Made by a program: the position numbers and the translations under genes. 52,961 nucleotides of DNA. Source: Escherichia phage mEp013. The stretch is taken from sequence record PP180002; one strand, given 5' to 3'. Below are positions 3,860 to 25,257 of the stretch, one piece after another (positions within the stretch are counted from its first letter, which is position 1; each line of letters opens with the position of its first letter). The notes beneath the pieces were generated by a model. The model saw only the letters and a list, made by a program, of their open reading frames with translations, was not told the DNA's origin and ran no database searches.

Positions 3860-5275
3860 TTAAAAAGATGCGTTATTCTGATTGTTTCGTTGGTTAAAAC
3901 GGCTTGTGCGATGATTCATTGACTGAATGCACGCGGCAGCGGCCCTGCCCTGGTCGCATGGTATGATGTTGCCGTTATCGTCAAACCGCTGGTAGACAGT
4001 CCCCGTTTTCCCGTGACGGTTTTTCGATACAATGATTTCCATATATTCGCGGGCAACAGACTGCTCATCGTAGTAGCCATCGCGGTACACCATGATGATC
4101 CTGTCAGCGTCCTGTTCAAGATTGCCGGAATCACGAAGATCCGAATTGTTAGGACGCTTGTTCGGTCGTTCCTCAACGCGGCGGGATAATTGCGCCAGCG
4201 CCAGCACCGGTACGCGCAATTCTTTCGCCATCATCTTCAACGACCATGACAATTGCCCTACGGCGAGATCATGACGTTCAGCCTTAGCCAGCTTCATCAA
4301 CCCGATGTAGTCAATCATTACCATACCCATGTTGGGATGTTCCTGTTTCATCCGTTCCGTGGTGGCGCGTATTTCCTCAACCGTTAACTGCGACGCGTCA
4401 ACGATCCACACATCAAGATTAGCAAGTGCGCTCATACCCTGGCCGACATGCGCCCACCCCTCATCATCAAGTTTTACCGGATTGCGCAGGCAGTCAGTTG
4501 ATAAATTTCCAGCGCCAGCTATGGCGCGCTCAGTCATCTGATCGAGCGACATTTCAAGCGTGAAGAACAAAACGCCAACCCGCTGATCCTTGCTGCCAGG
4601 GTAAGGGCGTTCAGCAGCAGCGCGGGCAATTGCCAGCGCCAACGCAGATTTACCAGACCCAGGGCGTCCGGCGAGAAGCACCAGATCAGTAGCGTTAATG
4701 CCGCCTAACATTTCGTCGAGTGGTTCTATCCCTGTTTTGATGTTGTCAGAATTGACACCGCACTCCATGCGCTTACTTAAAACTTCTGTGTACTCCTGGA
4801 CAGCATCGCGCAACAGAACAGGGATAATCTTGTCTTTAGTTACCTTTAATTTTGAATACCGGGAATCAAAATCTTTCATCGTCTCTTTGACGACCTCAAG
4901 CGTCCCCGTCTCCAGTTTGTAGCGCATATCGTCGATGAGTTCTAACATCTGCCGACGCTGGTGCTCTTCACGTAATAGCTGTGCGTATCCCTTCAGGTTG
5001 GCAGCAGAAGGACACGATCGCGCCGTTTGCATCAGCGGTACAAAATTTTCGTTGCCAATCTCATCACCAACCAGCAAGGCGTCGATAAGATTCCTGTTTC
5101 TGGCTTGCGCCCTGATAATTTCAAACGCACGTTTATACAGCGGAATCGTGAACACTTCAGGATCAAGAGTGGCGAGAACATCTTGCGCGTTAGGAGTTAG
5201 GCCGCCTAACAGCAGCCCGCCGATAACTGACGCTTCACGTTCCTGCCGTAGTGAGTTTATTTGCTCAGTTACCAT
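3860..5275 (-). CDS. replicative DNA helicase, DnaB family
   Basis: 471 aa; DnaB N-terminal signature SVIGGLLLG and Walker A GRPGSGKS. Confidence 0.9.
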   Translation of the reverse strand: MVTEQINSLRQEREASVIGGLLLGGLTPNAQDVLATLDPEVFTIPLYKRAFEIIRAQARNRNLIDALLVGDEIGNENFVPLMQTARSCPSAANLKGYAQLLREEHQRRQMLELIDDMRYKLETGTLEVVKETMKDFDSRYSKLKVTKDKIIPVLLRDAVQEYTEVLSKRMECGVNSDNIKTGIEPLDEMLGGINATDLVLLAGRPGSGKSALALAIARAAAERPYPGSKDQRVGVLFFTLEMSLDQMTERAIAGAGNLSTDCLRNPVKLDDEGWAHVGQGMSALANLDVWIVDASQLTVEEIRATTERMKQEHPNMGMVMIDYIGLMKLAKAERHDLAVGQLSWSLKMMAKELRVPVLALAQLSRRVEERPNKRPNNSDLRDSGNLEQDADRIIMVYRDGYYDEQSVAREYMEIIVSKNRHGKTGTVYQRFDDNGNIIPCDQGRAAAACIQSMNHRTSRFNQRNNQNNASF

Positions 5276-5293
5276 TATGTCATTACCTCATGT

Positions 5294-6412
5294 TTACAAA
5301 ATGGAAAATTCAGGGTAATAAACAAAGCGCCCGATCTCCCCATGATCCGGGCTGTAAATAATAACCGCTGCCAGACGCCGCGACCGCCAGCCGCCATTAG
5401 TTGAGTAAGCGTCTTTACCCGCTAACGTGCCGTGATACTCAACAACGCCTAACGATGATTCGATTAGCCGTTGATGGTGCCAGTGCCCGCAATGAGCGTA
5501 AACCGCCGCAGACTTGCCAAAATCCTCACGCCAGTCAGCTACGCAAGCAGACAATAAATTTTCCGGCTTTTTGATAGTGTGCCCGTGGTGGTAAGCAAGG
5601 AATGTTTTTCCGTACTGTGTGTGGTGGACGATGGCAGGGGACACATCAACCGTCACGCGCGGTTCATCTTCGTAAAAAGCAGCCAGCGCCGCACGTAGCC
5701 AGATCATTCCTGACTGGTCGTGATTGCCGGATAACACCTGGATTTCAACATCCTTATGATTTAATAACATCTTCCCTACCGCCCGCCGGACCGACCGGAT
5801 CGCTACATAAACAAGTTTTGCGTAGCGACTATCTTGATCAAGAATGTGCCCGCTTGTTGGAGTCACCGGGACCATGCCGTCAGAGTGAAGCAGATCCCCA
5901 CCGAGAAGCAATACAGCTTTTTCAGACATCGGCGCAGCGCCTACAGCGTAGTCAAAGAAGTCATTCAACACGCGCTCAGCAATCCCAGTGTCGTAGCTCT
6001 CGCCACATTCGGCTTTATGAGCAAGCGCCCCGATATGCAGATCAAATACCGGATAAAGGGCCAGGCTTTTTTGAAAATCAATTTCAGGCACTGGCACGGC
6101 ATCCGCGCGTGGTATTTCCTCCGTGAATGCGTCGCAGGCAGCTTCCATTAGCCTTTCCATTTCATCACGGTCACGGGCTGTTTTAATCCAGCGCATGATC
6201 ACATTGCCGTTCTTATCGACTAGTAACGACTCGCCATTGACGCCAAAACCAGGCGCGCGGCGTGTTGACAATAAACCGCGTTTAGCCAGCTTTGCGCCAA
6301 GACGCTCGACGTTGCGTTTTGACATGCCATATTTTTCGGCGATCTGTTTATACGTTAAACCATTGTTATATTCAGCGATCAATTGCTCATCGCTGATTTT
6401 TCTTTGTGACAT
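5294..6412 (-). CDS. HTH domain fused to calcineurin-like metallophosphoesterase
   Basis: N-terminal HTH (LTYKQIAEKYGMSKRNVERL); phosphoesterase motifs GDLLHSD, SGNHD, GHWHH; RBS GAGGA. Confidence 0.75.
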   Translation of the reverse strand: MSQRKISDEQLIAEYNNGLTYKQIAEKYGMSKRNVERLGAKLAKRGLLSTRRAPGFGVNGESLLVDKNGNVIMRWIKTARDRDEMERLMEAACDAFTEEIPRADAVPVPEIDFQKSLALYPVFDLHIGALAHKAECGESYDTGIAERVLNDFFDYAVGAAPMSEKAVLLLGGDLLHSDGMVPVTPTSGHILDQDSRYAKLVYVAIRSVRRAVGKMLLNHKDVEIQVLSGNHDQSGMIWLRAALAAFYEDEPRVTVDVSPAIVHHTQYGKTFLAYHHGHTIKKPENLLSACVADWREDFGKSAAVYAHCGHWHHQRLIESSLGVVEYHGTLAGKDAYSTNGGWRSRRLAAVIIYSPDHGEIGRFVYYPEFSIL

Positions 6413-6445: not shown

Positions 6446-6982
6446 TCATTGACAGCAAACAATCTCTTTATATGCCTCTTCTACCATGTCGAATACTTCC
6501 GGCCTGTAATAGAAAAACTCATTGCTGCCATCAAATTTTACAGGAAAGTTAATTTTATAATTGCTGAAATATTTATGCATCGTGCTTTCTAGTTTATGTA
6601 TATTTTCGGTTGACCCTTCTAACGTTTTCACGATACACAAATCAGGGATTCTAACGCCTGCTTTATGTGCGCTTTTTAATATTTCATTTCTTCGCTCGTT
6701 ATCCTTAACGCTTACACCGATTTTCATTTGTGTAGGTAATTCCAGATCATCAACCATGATGTAAAGTTTGCCATACTCATAACTAAGGAAACCGTATTTC
6801 GCGCATTTTGGGCAGCCGCGCCCGCGCTTAAGGTCGCTAGGAGTAGCCGACCACTCATGATCACAAACCTTACAGCGGCATGATACTTTTGTTTTGCAAT
6901 TGATAATTTCTCCCAACACTTCAACATTGGGGTTAATTCTTGAGATAGCGGCAACTTGCTCCTTATGAGTTAACTTGCGCAT
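6446..6982 (-). CDS. zinc-ribbon plus GIY-YIG-like (T5orf172/MUG113-type) protein, single-repeat paralog of 39479..40789
   Basis: One LTHKEQVAAI..C.C..C.HEW..GCPKC repeat then GKLYIMVDD..KIGVS..ERRN..EFFYY domain shared with the 436-aa protein; ATG at 6982 has RBS AGGAG. Confidence 0.7.
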   Translation of the reverse strand: MRKLTHKEQVAAISRINPNVEVLGEIINCKTKVSCRCKVCDHEWSATPSDLKRGRGCPKCAKYGFLSYEYGKLYIMVDDLELPTQMKIGVSVKDNERRNEILKSAHKAGVRIPDLCIVKTLEGSTENIHKLESTMHKYFSNYKINFPVKFDGSNEFFYYRPEVFDMVEEAYKEIVCCQ

Positions 6983-7115
6983 TGTCATAGCTCCTAAAAA
7001 CGCATCAGACGCGCTACAACGCAAAAAATCCCACCGCGTAACCCACTTGTAAGGGTGCAGTGTCTTTTTTGCGCCAGAAGCGCAATCAGGTGGCTAATTT
7101 TTGATTTACAGACTG

Positions 7116-7217
7116 GTAGGTATGTTATGGATTGACTAGAAGGAACAAACCGCCGAACAAAGCGACGTTAACAGCAATTGCCGCAGCGATGGCAAAAGCC
7201 AGGGCGAAAACGTGTTT
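7116..7217 (-). CDS. small hydrophobic membrane peptide (33 aa)
   Basis: Hand-translated MDGKHVFALAFAIAAAIAVNVALFGGLFLLVNP; RBS GAGAGGA; below the 60-aa ORF-track cutoff. Confidence 0.4.
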
Positions 7218-7359
7218 ACCGTCCATTTTTAAATCCTCTCTGTAACGCTCTATAACGAGCTAATCGCAAAAAGGTATGCAAGTGTAGCACCCAATGCTTT
7301 TTAGCTCGCTGGTGAGCTTGTTTTGTGGGTAATTTTGGATTTTTGTGTATTGTGGTTGG

Positions 7360-8358
7360 TCAAAGAGCGCCAGCGCGTGTATCACGTAGCGTTTTTGGTT
7401 TAAGCAGGAAATCAAGTGTCGCAGTAAAGCCATTGCCGAAGTAAAAATCTGAAGCCGTGTTTTTGAACGTTTCGAAGTAGGCAACAAAGCCGTTAATGCT
7501 TTTATCTTTCAGGTAGTCAGTGAACGCATAGATCTTTCGTTCAAGATCCCGATCCAGTTCAGCAGGTGGCAACAGGCCATCAAACGTGATGTTAAACTCT
7601 TCCACCACATCGGCAGCGCTTACAGTAGCTGTAACTCTTCGCCATTGTTCAGCCTTTGCCCGGTATTCATCAAAGCGGCTTACCCTGGCGATCTTTATCG
7701 GTTCCGGTTTAAACGACCATGTTTCCGCTATCCAGTCGATAACCATGATCAAATCTTCTTCAGTATATGCGCCTCGTGTTTTTGTTTTCTTCAGTAGGTT
7801 AACAAAGTATTTTTTCTCCTTATGCTTGCTATTAAACTTGTTGTTATAGTGATCGAGTACGCGCGACGCTGCCAAATCAGCCGCCCGATCTTCTTCGCTG
7901 ATAGACTCGTCTTTTTCCAATACACGAAGTGTATTGTTTTTAATGTTCTCTTTACTGGTTATATATGACTGGTTAGGGTGACTCTGTGACACTACCCCCG
8001 GTGACTCTGTGTCACTACCCTGGTGACTCTGTGACACTACCCCCGGTGTCACAGTGACACTACCATGTAATGACGGGAGGACTATTACATAGAAATTACT
8101 AGTTTGCTCTTTTCCTCCGATCAAGTATCTTGGTTGTTTAATCAACAACCCTTTTTCACAAAGTGAGTCTACAGCCCTCATAGCTGTTCTTTTGCTGATC
8201 TCACACTCCTTTGCTATGTGATGGTAAGAAGGGTAACACTCGCCGTTATCATTAGCGTTATCAGCTAACTTCAACAGCACTAGTTTGTGCATTGGGTCGC
8301 CGACCTCAGTATGGAAGACTTCTACCATTAGCCGCATACTCATAAGCATTAACCTCAT
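7360..8358 (-). CDS. replication initiator, lambda O-like (phage replisome organiser N-terminal domain) with internal iterons
   Basis: N-terminal wHTH (ISKRTAMRAVDSLCEKGLLIK); in-frame repeated GVVSQSH peptide encoded by four 22-bp iterons; start not resolved (8358 vs downstream ATGs). Confidence 0.75.
   Translation of the reverse strand: MRLMLMSMRLMVEVFHTEVGDPMHKLVLLKLADNANDNGECYPSYHHIAKECEISKRTAMRAVDSLCEKGLLIKQPRYLIGGKEQTSNFYVIVLPSLHGSVTVTPGVVSQSHQGSDTESPGVVSQSHPNQSYITSKENIKNNTLRVLEKDESISEEDRAADLAASRVLDHYNNKFNSKHKEKKYFVNLLKKTKTRGAYTEEDLIMVIDWIAETWSFKPEPIKIARVSRFDEYRAKAEQWRRVTATVSAADVVEEFNITFDGLLPPAELDRDLERKIYAFTDYLKDKSINGFVAYFETFKNTASDFYFGNGFTATLDFLLKPKTLRDTRAGAL
7977..8066. repeat. four ~22-bp iterons GGTGACTCTGTGACACTACCC inside the O-like gene (candidate origin of replication)
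   Basis: Direct repeats at 7977, 8000, 8022, 8045, each with an internal inverted GTGAC/GTCAC; mirrors lambda ori inside O. Confidence 0.7.
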
Positions 8359-8364
8359 GACGAA

Positions 8365-8610
8365 CTAAAACATTAACTGATAAACACAGAAGAAACCTGG
8401 CAGCTGACTGATTAGGCCGCTTCTTTTCAGTTGATGCAGTGCAGAGATAGTGTCACGTAACGAAATTTCGCACATTTCAGCGATTTCTTCCGGCGTTACT
8501 TCGCTTTTGCCGTTGCATCCGGCCTTTGTTGCCAGTGCAATTAAGATGAGTTTTTGCGTCGGATCATTGTTATTCAGGCGAATATCAAAAGCCTTGCGAA
8601 CGTAATACAT
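8365..8610 (-). CDS. Cro-position winged-HTH DNA-binding protein (81 aa)
   Basis: First gene divergent from cI; RBS AGGAGAAAG; aligns with N-terminal domain of the O-like protein (DP.QKLILI..EISLRD); may be Cro- or CII-like. Confidence 0.55.
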   Translation of the reverse strand: MYYVRKAFDIRLNNNDPTQKLILIALATKAGCNGKSEVTPEEIAEMCEISLRDTISALHQLKRSGLISQLPGFFCVYQLMF

Positions 8611-8915
8611 GTTTCTTTCTCCTATGGTTAGGTGAACGCGCGGGCGGGTATCCAATTAGCATTAGATAGCAGTGACTGACCGCTGAACAGATCCCGCCGT
8701 TGCGTGATATTTGTTTTTCGCTTCGCAGCGACACCGGGTTTTTAAAGAGCTTTTAAGGTATGTGCCTTTTGTGCTTTCCCTTATCTCTTTCCTTGCATCA
8801 TTGCAAGTTCGGCTTTACCTTGTCTGTAAGTTTACAGAATGGCGTTAACAGATCAAGGATTGAAAATTACATTTTGTGACTTGCATCAAAATTTTTTAGG
8901 TTATAGGGTAGCGAC

Positions 8916-9563
8916 ATGAAAACAAAATGGTATGACCTGGCAAAACAACTCATGCGGGCGCAGGGCATGAGTCAAGATTCATTGGCAGATCTCATGGGGA
9001 TCACTAAAGGCGGCTTGTCACACTGGCTTAACGGTCGCCGCGAGCCAAATCTTGAAGACATTGCGCGGATTATGCGGGCGCTTGGGCGTCGGCAGTTCAC
9101 TGTCACACATGATGGAATGGTCATTGATGACTCTGTTTCTAACACGTTGCCGGGAGCGCCACCGCGTGATTTAGGCAGTTACCCGGTTGTTGACTGGAAG
9201 GATGTAGTAAACAATATGGAAGATGCAAGGCGATCAACATTACCACACGTTACGACTAGCGTTATTTGTTCAGATGATAGTTATTGGCTGGTAGCTAAAG
9301 GCGAATCAATGAACGCGCCGCAAGGATTGAGTATACCAGCGGGGACGATGATACTTGTCGATCCGCACGCGCCAGCTATTGACGGAAAACTGGTTATAGC
9401 CCAACTGGAGGAGGGGCAGATACCGACGTTTAAACAGTTGATTATTGATGGAGGCAGAAAACTTTTGCGTTCACTGAATCCGTTGTATCCGCCAATCCCT
9501 ATGAATCCAGAATCTAAAATCATAGGCGTGGTAGTGGATGCGAAGATCGTAAACCTGCCATAA
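8916..9563 (+). CDS. cI: CI-type repressor (HTH_XRE plus S24 LexA-like peptidase domain)
   Basis: N-terminal HTH (MSQDSLADLMGITKGGLSHWLNG); C-terminal autocleavage domain with GESM Ser and downstream Lys. Confidence 0.85.
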   Translation: MKTKWYDLAKQLMRAQGMSQDSLADLMGITKGGLSHWLNGRREPNLEDIARIMRALGRRQFTVTHDGMVIDDSVSNTLPGAPPRDLGSYPVVDWKDVVNNMEDARRSTLPHVTTSVICSDDSYWLVAKGESMNAPQGLSIPAGTMILVDPHAPAIDGKLVIAQLEEGQIPTFKQLIIDGGRKLLRSLNPLYPPIPMNPESKIIGVVVDAKIVNLP

Positions 9564-10932: not shown

Positions 10933-11524
10933 GACATGTAATAAATGCGGTAGGCGACTACCGCTTGATTGTTTTCCTAAACATAAAGGCTGCAAATATG
11001 GTGTTACTAGCACATGCGTTGAGTGCACTAAAATAAGCGTGAAAGCATTTAGGGAAAGGAATAAAGATAAAATAGCTGAACGAAATAGAAAATGGAGGGA
11101 AGAACATAAGGAAGAGATACGAGAGAAAGATAAGAAATACTACGAAGAACATAAGAAAGAATGTAATGATCGCGCGAAAAAATATAGAGAAAACAACAGG
11201 AAGAAAATTATAGAATATAAAAATGATTGGGTTAAAAGAAACGAAGAAAGATTGAAGGAGTACCGGAGAATATATCACGAAGATTATAAAGAAAGAAATA
11301 AGGCTGAACTAAAAGCAAGAACAAAACTAAGTAACGCCATTAGAGATGGCAAGATATTTAGGCCTGATAGGTGTGATCGTTGCGGAAATAAATGTACTCC
11401 TGATGGTCATCACTGGAATTATGCGTTTCCGCTTAACGTTATTTGGTTATGTAGATCTTGTCACAAAATAGTTCATGTTAAATTCGGGTGTATCCACGAA
11501 GATATTAACGGGGAGATCAATTAA
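10916..11524 (+). CDS. HNH endonuclease-like protein
   Basis: Cys-rich N-terminus; lysine-rich centre; C-terminal CDRCG..HHWNY..WLCRSCH HNH-type motif. Confidence 0.6.
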   Translation: MEVLTKTCNKCGRRLPLDCFPKHKGCKYGVTSTCVECTKISVKAFRERNKDKIAERNRKWREEHKEEIREKDKKYYEEHKKECNDRAKKYRENNRKKIIEYKNDWVKRNEERLKEYRRIYHEDYKERNKAELKARTKLSNAIRDGKIFRPDRCDRCGNKCTPDGHHWNYAFPLNVIWLCRSCHKIVHVKFGCIHEDINGEIN

Positions 11525-24723: not shown

Positions 24724-25257
24724 ATGGCTAAGGCTAAAGGCATTAAGTTGCCTCAATTCAAAGTCCCGCTCTTTGAGCATACAACAGTTTTCTTTTGCCC
24801 GACCCGCGAGATGTTCTATGAATTTTGCGAAAAGGCAGGGATCCCAATCGAACCTGATTTCGAACTGGCAGGAGGATTGACGCTTACTTGCACGGGTGAG
24901 AAAGGCGGTAACTTCTACGTGATCGCAGTATTCGATAATGAGTTAGGAACGCTAACACATGAAGTGGCACATGCTACATTTCATTGTTTAAGTGATGTTG
25001 GCGTAATGGCTGCAACAGATCCCAGCCATCCAGCCAATGAGACTTACGCTTATATGATTGGGCGCATGTTTGATGCTTTTTATCCTGTACTACTTGAAAG
25101 CATAGACGCACAAGCCGCAGCTATCCGGGCGCAACAAGCGCTAGAAGAAGCTGAAAGAAAAAAAGAAGCCAAAAGAAAAGCAAAAGCAAAAGCAAAAGAG
25201 CCGCCAAAAGTGGAAAAATACATTGTTGCGTGGCGTAGCCGTTATGCAATGGGATGA
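24724..25257 (+). CDS. HExxH-motif protein (putative zinc metallopeptidase-like), lysine-rich C-terminus
   Basis: HEVAH motif; KAKAKAK tail; RBS GAGGAA. Confidence 0.5.
   Translation: MAKAKGIKLPQFKVPLFEHTTVFFCPTREMFYEFCEKAGIPIEPDFELAGGLTLTCTGEKGGNFYVIAVFDNELGTLTHEVAHATFHCLSDVGVMAATDPSHPANETYAYMIGRMFDAFYPVLLESIDAQAAAIRAQQALEEAERKKEAKRKAKAKAKEPPKVEKYIVAWRSRYAMG

What the first reader, a model, noticed from the sequence alone, without database searches (positions are those of the whole stretch)
7977..8066. Four iterons embedded in the O-like initiator gene (candidate ori)
Four ~22-bp direct repeats (GGTGACTCTGTGACACTACCC and variants) lie inside the coding sequence, encoding a repeated GVVSQSH peptide, exactly as lambda ori sits inside O. 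This marks the probable replication origin and could be mistaken for a CRISPR-like or slippage repeat.
Basis: partly seen in the sequence, partly recalled or inferred. Interest (0 to 1): 0.45.

Follow-up and report, generated by a model that had tools for sequence, protein, structure and literature searches.

The report
Phage replication origin inside initiator gene
Four 22-23-bp repeats inside the replication-initiator gene of coliphage mEp013 are very probably the initiator's binding sites at the phage's replication origin, built like the lambda and P22 origins: a correct but ordinary finding.

Summary
Four tandem units lie at 7977-8066, and the motif occurs nowhere else in the 53-kb window, which is the phage mEp013 genome. 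They sit inside the initiator gene (7360..8358, minus strand), just after its winged-helix DNA-binding domain. An AT-rich tract follows (7930-7970, least stable 0.5% of the genome), then a hairpin.

The repeat is selected as DNA, not as peptide:
- Units are read in two alternating frames, so GVVSQSH occurs twice, not four times.
- Substitutions ignore codon position.
- Copy number changes only in pairs (2, 4 or 6 units).

Repeat sequence tracks the initiator's predicted recognition helix with no exception among 117 close homologs. The DNA just downstream recombines freely. Of 117 distinct homologous N-domains across Gammaproteobacteria, 104 are followed by such an array.

The protein is not in the lambda O family. 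It combines an HTH_36 N-domain with a C-terminus homologous to P22 gp18. A helicase 57% identical to P22 gp12 lies downstream.

Verdict: a new, unannotated member of a known kind of origin. Binding and initiation remain untested. A conserved GAACCAGTCA element next to the arrays is the one possibly new detail.

The parts
7360..8358 (-). Replication initiator gene. The ORF is 332 aa as listed. The probable start is 8343 (MSMRLMV) or 8349 (GenBank mEp013 'DNA replication protein O', 329 aa).
   Evidence: ORF list. Pfam HTH_36 at aa 22-72, E=4.9e-15. PHROG 428/8540/345/391 'replication initiation (O-like)', E=1e-25 to 6e-33. P0001 is 100% identical.
8143..8295 (-). Coding region of the winged-helix (HTH_36) DNA-binding domain. 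The predicted recognition helix SKRTAMRAVDSL is encoded at 8161-8196.
   Evidence: Pfam. The AF2 model shows a helix-turn-helix plus beta wing. Foldseek matches only winged-helix DNA binders, and weakly. Helix type co-varies with repeat type.
8045..8066 (-). Iteron 1 in gene order. Core GGTAGTGTCACTGTGACACC holds a perfect 7-bp inverted repeat, GTGTCAC-T-GTGACAC. Read as G S V T V T P.
8022..8044 (-). Iteron 2. Core GGTAGTGTCACAGAGTCACC. Read in the other frame as G V V S Q S H Q.
8000..8021 (-). Iteron 3. Core GGTAGTGACACAGAGTCACC, with dyad GTGAC-ACAGA-GTCAC. Read as G S D T E S P.
7977..7999 (-). Iteron 4, next to the AT-rich tract. Core GGTAGTGTCACAGAGTCACC. Read as G V V S Q S H P.
7952..7975 (-). 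Two copies of the family-wide GAACCAGTCA element: TAACCAGTCA at 7966-7975 and TAACCAGTAA at 7952-7961. They lie directly after the last iteron. Role unknown.
   Evidence: AACCAGT occurs at the equivalent place in 106 of 116 distinct homologous genes, about 108-fold over background. It is always in sense orientation and is read in all three frames.
7920..7976 (.). AT-rich tract and candidate DNA-unwinding element. GC is 0.30-0.33. The 40-bp window 7930-7970 is among the least stable 0.5% in the genome. It is A-rich on the gene-sense strand.
   Evidence: It is nearly invariant among 9 related phages down to about 7938 (gene nt about 405).
7918..7936 (.). Hairpin-forming inverted repeat CAATACAC-GAA-GTGTATTG at the far edge of the AT-rich tract. 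A T-run follows on the + strand.
   Evidence: The stems are kept and the loop varies in relatives. P22's ori region also ends in an inverted repeat (CCCCCT-AAA-GGGGGA).
7900..8076 (-). Segment encoding the predicted disordered interdomain linker (P0001 residues 92-150). It contains the whole origin core.
   Evidence: AF2 pLDDT is 23-35 with no secondary structure. Natural length variants of -15 and +15 residues exist.
7363..7641 (-). Coding region of the C-terminal domain homologous to the C-terminus of P22 gp18. Inferred to be the helicase-recruiting part.
   Evidence: BLASTP: aa 240-332 against P22 gp18 aa 175-271, 32% identity, E=1e-12. The same C-terminal half is attached to a different N-domain in mEp515 and MagusPhagus.
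3860..5275 (-). Phage-encoded DnaB-type replicative helicase, downstream in the same leftward operon.
   Evidence: Pfam DnaB_C E=3.4e-76 and DnaB N E=7.9e-12. 57% identical to P22 gp12 over 444 aa.
8365..8655 (-). Small winged-helix paralog of the initiator's N-domain, immediately upstream. Relatives annotate it as 81 aa (8365..8610). It is not the likely iteron binder.
   Evidence: 37% identity to initiator aa 21-79, E=3e-10. Its helix is identical in phages with iteron types A, B and C.
8916..9563 (+). CI-like repressor (HTH_3 plus Peptidase_S24), divergently transcribed. The 8656-8915 gap is the presumed early control region for the operon that contains the origin.
   Evidence: Annotated 'cI repressor' in mEp010, mEp044 and mEp554.

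Best explanation
The array is the initiator-binding part of the lytic replication origin of phage mEp013, embedded in the initiator's own gene.

Proposed steps (all inferred; none tested here):
1. After repression is lifted, the leftward early operon expresses the initiator.
2. Dimers of its N-terminal winged-helix domain bind the four dyad-symmetric iterons (GTGWC-N5-GWCAC, about 22.7 bp apart) and form a lambda 'O-some'-like complex.
3. This complex helps open the adjacent AT-rich tract (7930-7970).
4. The C-terminal, P22 gp18-like domain brings in the phage's own DnaB-type helicase (3860..5275). No lambda P-type loader is involved.
5. Host primase and polymerase then take over.

Shown here:
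- the anatomy of the region;
- selection on the repeat as DNA;
- linkage between helix type and iteron type;
- conservation of the layout across the family;
- homology to P22 gp18 (C-terminus) and gp12.
For: 1. Real and unique. There are 4 matches against 0.00 expected, and it is the top tandem repeat in the window.

2. Placement. The array lies in a gene matching phage initiator families, directly after the HTH_36 domain. Lambda's annotated iterons and P22's annotated rep_origin sit at the same relative place.

3. Flanking DNA. The neighbouring 40 bp are in the least stable 0.5% of the genome (z=2.5). A hairpin follows.

4. DNA-level constraint.
- Units are read in two frames.
- Among 9 related phages, the N-domain varies at codon positions 1/2/3 in 13/1/60 sites. 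The array varies in 12/10/6 sites (third positions p=1.8e-5; first plus second p=4.9e-7).
- Unit positions 1-7, 9-10, 15 and 18-20 are fixed apart from two single-unit changes. Positions 8, 11-14 and 16-17 change together in most or all units.

5. Specificity linkage in close homologs.
- Among 117 cluster representatives, helix SKRT..DSL goes only with QSH-type repeats (60/60).
- [SG]KST..DAL goes only with SERH-type (36/36), and NKST..IEAL only with AESN-type (15/15).
- One hybrid helix carries a hybrid repeat.
- Every helix type occurs with both downstream segment types.

6. Specificity linkage family-wide. With Arg at helix position 3, the GTG-N9-CAC dyad is present at least 3 times in 90 of 91 loci. 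With Ser it is present in 0 of 24.

7. Family-wide layout. 104 of 117 distinct N-domains (144 of 159 loci) are followed by a 21-24-bp-period array. Background is 0.012 per equal-sized segment.

8. Copy number. The array changes only in pairs, giving 2, 4 or 6 units. This fits published data that two iterons plus the AT-rich tract suffice for lambda, and that Stx phages have six (PMC7466680).

9. Replication module. The helicase is 57% identical to P22 gp12. The initiator's C-terminus is homologous to that of gp18.

10. Alternative allele. mEp515 and MagusPhagus have a different N-domain with their own 4 x 11-bp array and AT-rich tract at the same place.

11. Linker. The array encodes a predicted disordered linker.
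Against: - No experiment bears on binding or on the start site of replication.
- The helix-repeat association involves DNA only about 100-200 bp apart and related sequences, so linkage and shared descent contribute. The contrast with free recombination just downstream lessens this concern but does not remove it.
- The purine strand asymmetry typical of lambda's AT-rich tract is not marked here (0.56 over 57 nt, 42nd percentile).
- The GC-skew minimum at 8520 coincides with the switch in transcription direction, so it is not independent evidence.
- A second AT-rich stretch (7780-7860) lies about 120 bp further on and could be the site that actually opens.
- The structural model is of low overall confidence (mean pLDDT 57.7).
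Confidence: 0.8

Rival explanations
1. The units do bind the initiator, but their main role is regulatory: autoregulation, copy-number control by handcuffing, or exclusion of related phages. Strand opening and initiation would occur elsewhere, for example at the 7780-7860 AT-rich stretch or in the intergenic control region.
For: A second low-stability region lies at 7780-7860 (z about 2.0-2.1). In plasmids, iterons act in both initiation and control (PMC5043065). Ectopic lambda origin copies inhibit phage growth (PMC4488673, title and abstract).
Against: The least stable DNA directly abuts the last unit. [quoted passage not shown] No copy of the motif lies near any promoter region or anywhere else in the genome.
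Confidence: 0.1
2. The array is only a coding repeat made by replication slippage in a tolerant linker, with no function as DNA.
For: It encodes a Gly/Ser/Thr/Pro/Gln-rich segment predicted to be disordered. Copy number varies among isolates.
Against: - The unit length is not a multiple of three, and units are read in two frames.
- Third codon positions are more conserved than in the neighbouring domain. First and second positions are less conserved.
- All units change together and track the recognition helix.
- Arrays occupy the same place in 104 of 117 distinct homologs whose peptides differ.
Confidence: 0.04
3. The units are binding sites for another protein, such as the small winged-helix paralog encoded just upstream (8365..8655) or the CI-like repressor.
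For: The paralog shares 37% identity with the initiator's DNA-binding domain and is encoded next to it.
Against: The paralog's recognition helix is identical in phages of iteron types A, B and C, whereas the initiator's helix changes with the type. Repressor proteins in this phage group are about 96% similar (PMC11893012), while the iterons differ.
Confidence: 0.03
4. The array is a packaging, recombination or CRISPR-like element.
For: It is a tandem repeat with dyad symmetry. A mosaic boundary between alleles lies just downstream of it.
Against: There are no spacers between units and no cas genes nearby. The array lies about 18 kb from the large structural-gene block and is inside the replication module. 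The mosaic boundary is what modular exchange of a cognate binding-domain/site pair would produce.
Confidence: 0.02

Closest known systems
Salmonella phage P22 replication module (gene 18 initiator with internal ori, gene 12 DnaB-type helicase)
   Same: - Origin repeats lie inside the initiator gene, just after the DNA-binding domain, followed by an AT-rich tract and an inverted repeat.
- The initiator's C-terminal ~95 residues are homologous (32% identity, E=1e-12).
- The helicase is 57% identical.
- Gene order is initiator, helicase, ninB in both.
- Both lie in an early operon next to a divergent repressor gene.
   Different: - The N-terminal DNA-binding domain belongs to another family: HTH_36 here, Phage_rep_O in P22.
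- The iteron sequences are unrelated.
- Two extra genes lie between the initiator and the helicase: a homing-endonuclease-like ORF and a phrog_704 ORF.
- The host phage group is described as non-lambdoid (PMC11893012).
Phage lambda ori inside gene O
   Same: - Four roughly 20-bp iterons with internal dyad symmetry, spaced 20/24/23 bp (23/22/23 here), lie in the middle of the initiator gene.
- An A-rich AT tract lies on the downstream side.
- Lambda iterons bind O dimers and lie in an operon under repressor control (PMC5043065, PMC7466680).
   Different: - The protein fails the lambda O N-terminal profiles (TIGR01610, PF04492).
- There is no lambda P-type loader; the phage has its own DnaB-type helicase.
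- The purine strand bias of the AT-rich tract is weak.
- The repeats are much more regular than lambda's, which TRF does not even detect.
Salmonella phage L gene 18 (six 11-bp repeats proposed as ori)
   Same: A distantly related initiator carries its own short repeats inside its coding region and is paired with a DnaB-type gp12 (PMC8022706). The alternative mEp515/MagusPhagus allele, with four 11-bp GGGTCATGA units, is comparable.
   Different: The window's units are 22-23 bp with a 15-bp dyad, not 11-mers. No sequence comparison with phage L was made here.
Iteron-controlled plasmid origins (F, P1, R6K, RK2, pSC101)
   Same: Arrays of initiator-specific repeats lie next to an AT-rich unwinding element, and the initiators are winged-helix proteins (PMC5043065). 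Foldseek places the N-domain near a plasmid Rep-DNA complex, but only weakly (5kbj, E=0.26).
   Different: - Plasmid iterons are direct repeats bound by monomers and usually lie outside the rep gene. Here the units are dyad-symmetric and lie inside the gene.
- No plasmid Rep family was matched.
- There is no DnaA-box cluster.

Membership tests
Lambda/P22-type phage origin embedded in the initiator gene | Three or more initiator-specific repeats of about 11-24 bp inside the initiator coding region, just downstream of the part that encodes the DNA-binding domain | tested here: met
   Four units lie at gene nt 293-382, directly after the HTH_36 domain. Lambda's are at O nt 349-433 and P22's at gene 18 nt 353-497.
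Lambda/P22-type phage origin embedded in the initiator gene | Internal dyad symmetry in each repeat, consistent with binding of initiator dimers | tested here: met
   GTGWC-N5-GWCAC occurs once per unit: 4 matches against 0.08 expected. Unit 1 holds a perfect 7-bp inverted repeat.
Lambda/P22-type phage origin embedded in the initiator gene | AT-rich, easily melted tract directly beside the repeats on the downstream side | tested here: met
   7930-7970 is in the least stable 0.5% of 40-bp windows. GC is 0.30-0.33.
Lambda/P22-type phage origin embedded in the initiator gene | Repeat sequence matches the specificity of the cognate initiator | tested here: met
   Indirect test by co-variation. The association is perfect in 117 close homologs and in 115 distinct family members. 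Shared descent and physical linkage are a caveat.
Lambda/P22-type phage origin embedded in the initiator gene | The initiator physically binds the repeats | not testable with these tools
   Needs gel shift or footprinting.
Lambda/P22-type phage origin embedded in the initiator gene | Replication starts at this site | not testable with these tools
   Needs marker-frequency analysis, 2D gels or an origin-plasmid assay. The GC-skew minimum at 8520 is confounded by transcription direction.
Lambda O protein family (Pfam Phage_rep_O PF04492 / NCBIfam TIGR01610 phage_O_Nterm) | The N-terminal domain matches the O-family profile | tested here: not met
   The window protein has no hit at E<=0.01 in Pfam or NCBIfam. 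Lambda O hits at 5.7e-36 and 5.4e-39, and P22 gp18 at 6.9e-38.
P22 gene 18/12-type replication module | Initiator C-terminal domain homologous to that of gp18 | tested here: met
   32% identity over 97 residues, E=1e-12.
P22 gene 18/12-type replication module | Phage-encoded DnaB-type helicase downstream in the same operon | tested here: met
   DnaB_C E=3.4e-76. 57% identity to gp12.
   Window N-domain: Pfam HTH_36, E=4.9e-15. 104 of 117 distinct homologs have the array. 106 of 116 have the AACCAGT element. The window has both.
CRISPR array | Repeats separated by unique spacers of similar length, usually with cas genes nearby | tested here: not met
   Units abut each other with 2-3 bp between the 20-bp cores. 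The neighbouring genes are replication and immunity genes.

The most novel reading that the evidence does not exclude
The conserved, orientation-fixed GAACCAGTCA element is an undescribed functional part of the origin in a large family of HTH_36-type phage initiators across Gammaproteobacteria. There are one to three copies, 12 or 17 bp apart, between the iteron array and the AT-rich tract. It could, for example, be a sequence-specific single-strand or low-affinity site that the conserved part of the initiator, or a host factor, uses to open or hold open the DNA. It would play a role like the 13-mers of oriC and RK2. It is kept as DNA in all three reading frames while the iterons beside it diverge freely.
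Probability: 0.3. Interest if true: 0.5.

Novelty: new member of a known kind. Interest (0 to 1): 0.3.

Why it matters
It gives the mEpimmI coliphages a concrete, testable origin. This group is common in the human gut and is described as non-lambdoid. Neither the related GenBank records retrieved here nor the 2025 paper on the group mentions an origin.

It also shows that their replication module is a P22-type 18/12 system whose DNA-binding domain and cognate iterons have been swapped as one unit. At least three iteron specificities and a second, unrelated N-domain allele circulate in the group.

Practical uses:
- annotating origins in more than 100 related prophages;
- building origin plasmids;
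- predicting replication incompatibility or cross-activation between co-resident prophages.

It does not change what is known about how such origins work.

Tried and rejected
- A full-text search for the string AACCAGTCA returned only unrelated primer sequences.
- The Pf-5 mobile-element paper concerns a different, plasmid-like oriV.
- NCBIfam gave no usable family for the initiator, its paralog or the mEp515 allele.
- A sequence search of solved structures found nothing relevant.
- Foldseek against PDB gave only generic winged-helix matches (E>=0.08) and nothing for the confident middle domain.
- Promoter-like sites in 7000-9200 are no more frequent than in shuffles (2 against 2.8), so no claim is made about internal promoters.
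- DnaA boxes and GATC sites do not cluster at the array.
- The GC-skew minimum (8520) was set aside as confounded by transcription direction.
- Purine strand asymmetry like lambda's was looked for and is not marked.
- The idea that the upstream paralog binds the iterons was rejected, because its helix does not vary with iteron type.
- TRF as a positive control failed on lambda's proven iterons. Absence of a TRF hit therefore does not show absence of iterons, and the 104/117 figure is a lower bound.
Full report
**What is there**

The window is the complete genome of Escherichia phage mEp013. The encoded protein is 100% identical to GenBank's 'DNA replication protein O [Escherichia phage mEp013]', which lies on a contig of exactly 52,961 bp.

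At 7977-8066 there are four head-to-tail units, with + strand starts at 7977, 8000, 8022 and 8045 (spacing 23/22/23 bp). Tandem Repeats Finder scores the array 134 (period 23) or 148 (period 45), the highest score in the window. The 20-bp core, allowing three mismatches, occurs only at these four places, against 0.00 expected from shuffles. Each core contains the dyad GTGWC-N5-GWCAC: 4 matches against 0.08 expected.

The array lies inside ORF 7360..8358 on the minus strand.

**The host gene**

The product has an N-terminal winged-helix domain (Pfam HTH_36, aa 22-72, E=4.9e-15). It matches several PHROG families annotated as replication initiation or O-like proteins (E down to 5.6e-33).

An AlphaFold model built from 43 close homologs has low overall confidence (mean pLDDT 57.7). 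It shows three parts:
- a helix-turn-helix with a beta wing at residues 5-90;
- no structure at residues 92-150 (pLDDT 23-35);
- a confident helical domain at residues 151-240.

The unstructured stretch is encoded by 7900-8076. It therefore contains the array, the AT-rich tract and the hairpin described below.

**Flanking DNA**

In the gene's direction, three features follow the array in turn:
- Two copies of AACCAGT (TAACCAGTCA at 7966-7975 and TAACCAGTAA at 7952-7961).
- An AT-rich tract. The 40-bp window 7930-7970 is among the least stable 0.5% of the genome (z=2.5).
- An 8-bp-stem hairpin at 7918-7936.

Lambda's record annotates four iterons at O nt 349-433, spaced 20/24/23 bp, followed by an A-rich tract. 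P22's record annotates a rep_origin at gene 18 nt 353-497, with repeats, an A-rich tract and an inverted repeat. The layout here is the same.

**Is the repeat selected as DNA or as peptide?**

Four observations point to DNA.

- Reading frame. The unit length is not a multiple of three. Successive units are read in two alternating frames, giving GSVTVTP | GVVSQSHQ | GSDTESP | GVVSQSHP.
- Codon positions. Among nine related phages, the N-domain coding region varies mostly at third codon positions (13/1/60 variable sites at positions 1/2/3, of 92 each). The array varies evenly (12/10/6 of about 30 each). Third positions are more conserved than in the N-domain (p=1.8e-5), and first plus second positions are less conserved (p=4.9e-7).
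- Position within the unit. Variation follows the unit, not the codon. Unit positions 1-7, 9-10, 15 and 18-20 are fixed apart from two single-unit changes. Positions 8, 11-14 and 16-17 change together in most or all units.
- Copy number. Among 117 cluster representatives, copy number changes only in steps of 45 bp (two units, 15 codons). Ten have 2 units, 103 have 4 and four have 6.

**Does the repeat track the initiator's DNA-binding surface?**

In the 120 closest homologs, 117 of which could be parsed, three types occur:

| Predicted recognition helix | Repeat type | Association |
|---|---|---|
| SKRT..DSL | QSH / DTESP | 60 of 60 |
| [SG]KST..DAL | SERH | 36 of 36 |
| NKST..IEAL | AESN / GTKQ | 15 of 15 |

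The single hybrid helix (SKRTAMRAIEEL) carries a hybrid repeat. Every helix type is found with both versions of the segment that begins about 100 bp downstream of the array. So recombination is frequent there, yet it has never separated the helix from the array.

Across 115 distinct family members from many genera, Arg at helix position 3 goes with at least three GTG-N9-CAC dyads in 90 of 91 cases. Ser goes with none in 24 of 24. Shared descent and close linkage contribute to these associations, so they are supportive, not proof.

The small paralog encoded upstream (8365..8655; 37% identical to the N-domain) has the same helix in all three iteron types. It is therefore an unlikely binder.

**Is this a family-wide design?**

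Scans with an alignment of N-domains returned 160 loci from viral contigs and from Enterobacterales, Pseudomonas, Aeromonas, Shewanella, Vibrio and others.

A tandem array (period 9-30, at least 2.5 copies) lies at gene nt 200-520 in 144 of 159 usable loci. That is 104 of 117 distinct N-domains, mostly with period 21-24 starting at nt 263-300. The rate elsewhere in the same loci is 0.012 arrays per equal-sized segment.

Since TRF misses lambda's proven iterons altogether and scores P22's at only 71, this count is a lower bound.

The two relatives that share only the C-terminal half, mEp515 and MagusPhagus, have a Lin1244_N-type N-domain instead. At the equivalent place they carry their own array of four 11-bp GGGTCATGA units, read in three frames, followed by an AT-rich (TTAGAA)n tract. 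The binding domain and its repeats thus behave as one exchangeable module.

**Which known system is it?**

The kind is well known. A phage L genome paper states that lambda O, P22 gene 18 (four ~20-bp repeats) and L gene 18 (six 11-bp repeats) each carry their own iterons within the coding region. It also states that gp12 is a DnaB-type helicase (PMC8022706). A study of Stx phages records four iterons in lambda and six in Stx phages, and cites work showing that two iterons plus the AT-rich tract suffice for unwinding (PMC7466680). That fits the natural 2-, 4- and 6-unit variants seen here.

Membership in the lambda O protein family was tested and not met. Lambda O and P22 gp18 hit Phage_rep_O or phage_O_Nterm at E=1e-36 to 1e-39, and the window protein does not.

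The closest module is P22 18/12:
- The initiator's last ~95 residues are 32% identical to the C-terminus of gp18 (E=1e-12).
- The downstream helicase (3860..5275; DnaB_C E=3.4e-76) is 57% identical to gp12.
- ninB follows the helicase in both phages.

The initiator is therefore a domain chimera: an HTH_36 DNA-binding domain with its own iterons, joined to a gp18-type C-terminal domain.

**Mechanism proposed**

Initiator dimers bind the four iterons. The resulting complex helps melt the adjacent AT-rich tract. The gp18-like C-terminal domain recruits the phage's own DnaB-type helicase, without a lambda P-type loader. Binding, opening and recruitment are all inferences from anatomy and homology; none was tested here.

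The gene lies second in the leftward operon that starts opposite the CI-like repressor gene (8916..9563). Expression, and transcription through the origin, would therefore follow loss of repression, as in lambda (PMC5043065).

**What does not fit, or stays open**

- The purine strand bias characteristic of lambda's AT-rich tract is weak here.
- A second AT-rich stretch at 7780-7860 could be the region that actually opens.
- The cumulative GC-skew minimum at 8520 is close to the array, but it coincides with the change in transcription direction.
- No DnaA-box cluster is present.

**The one possibly new detail**

AACCAGT (consensus GAACCAGTCA) occurs at gene nt 250-520 in 106 of 116 distinct family members. 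That is 5.8 per kb against 0.054 per kb elsewhere. All 182 copies are in the sense orientation, usually 12 or 17 bp apart. The motif is read in all three frames (6/120/56), and 49 loci use more than one frame.

It stays constant while the iterons beside it diverge. It is absent from the Lin1244-type allele and from lambda O. P22 has AATCAGTCA directly after its last iteron. I found no description of it. Its role is unknown.

**Novelty**

The 2025 paper that defines the mEpimmI group never uses the word iteron and does not discuss a replication origin (PMC11893012). None of the six related phage records retrieved annotates one.

This is a new, unannotated member of a well-known kind of origin.

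Noticed in passing
window 7952-7975 (-); loci L013-L172 at gene nt 250-520; L174 at about 1915-1923: A GAACCAGTCA element lies just after the iteron array in 106 of 116 distinct HTH_36-type initiator genes. It is always in the gene's orientation, is read in all three frames, and is about 108-fold enriched. It is absent from the Lin1244-type allele and from lambda O. P22's ori has AATCAGTCA right after its last iteron.
   Followed up: partly
L005 3285-3330 (mEp515) and L006 3281-3326 (MagusPhagus): These phages carry an alternative initiator allele. It has a Lin1244_N N-terminal domain with its own four 11-bp GGGTCATGA units and a (TTAGAA)n AT-rich tract at the equivalent position. It is joined to the same C-terminal half as the window's protein.
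   Followed up: partly
window 8365-8655 (-): A small stand-alone paralog of the initiator's winged-helix domain (37% identity) lies immediately upstream, as the first gene of the early leftward operon. Its recognition helix is invariant across iteron types. Its function is unknown; it may be a Cro-like regulator.
   Followed up: partly
proteins P0017, P0019, P0026, P0067 (6 units); P0022, P0025, P0030, P0107, P0110 (2 units): Natural variants of the array have 2 or 6 units instead of 4. The change is always in pairs of units (45 bp, 15 codons), which keeps the reading frame.
   Followed up: yes
window 6446-7024 (-): A homing-endonuclease-like ORF (T5orf172/MUG113 plus zinc finger; PHROG 681) sits between the initiator and the next replication gene. 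Relatives carry different genes in this slot: a zinc-ribbon protein in mEp021, a DNA-binding protein in mEp044 and a Rha regulator in E21845.
   Followed up: no
window 5294-6412 (-): A conserved 372-aa protein (PHROG 704 'DNA repair exonuclease', with weak N-terminal HTH hits) lies between the initiator and the DnaB-type helicase. Its role in replication is unknown.
   Followed up: no
window 7799-7826 (+) and 7918-7946 (+): A promoter-like site on the strand antisense to the initiator gene is followed about 90 bp later by the origin hairpin plus a T-run, which looks like a terminator. This might specify a short antisense RNA. Promoter-like sites here are no more frequent than in shuffles. Terminator-like sites in 7000-9200 are (8 against 2.3 expected).
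   Followed up: no
window 7642-7900 (-), middle of the initiator gene: The initiator's middle segment exists in two versions that reassort freely with all N-domain and iteron types: the window type (..HYNNKFNSKHK..) and the mEp010 type (..FYNDKAGCKC..). The AlphaFold model is confident for this segment (pLDDT 81-94), but the fold search found no similar structure.
   Followed up: no
window 11099-11160 and 25145-25210: Two other tandem repeats (21 bp x 2.8 and 18 bp x 3.7) lie inside ORFs and look like lysine/glutamate-rich coding repeats. They do not resemble iterons.
   Followed up: no
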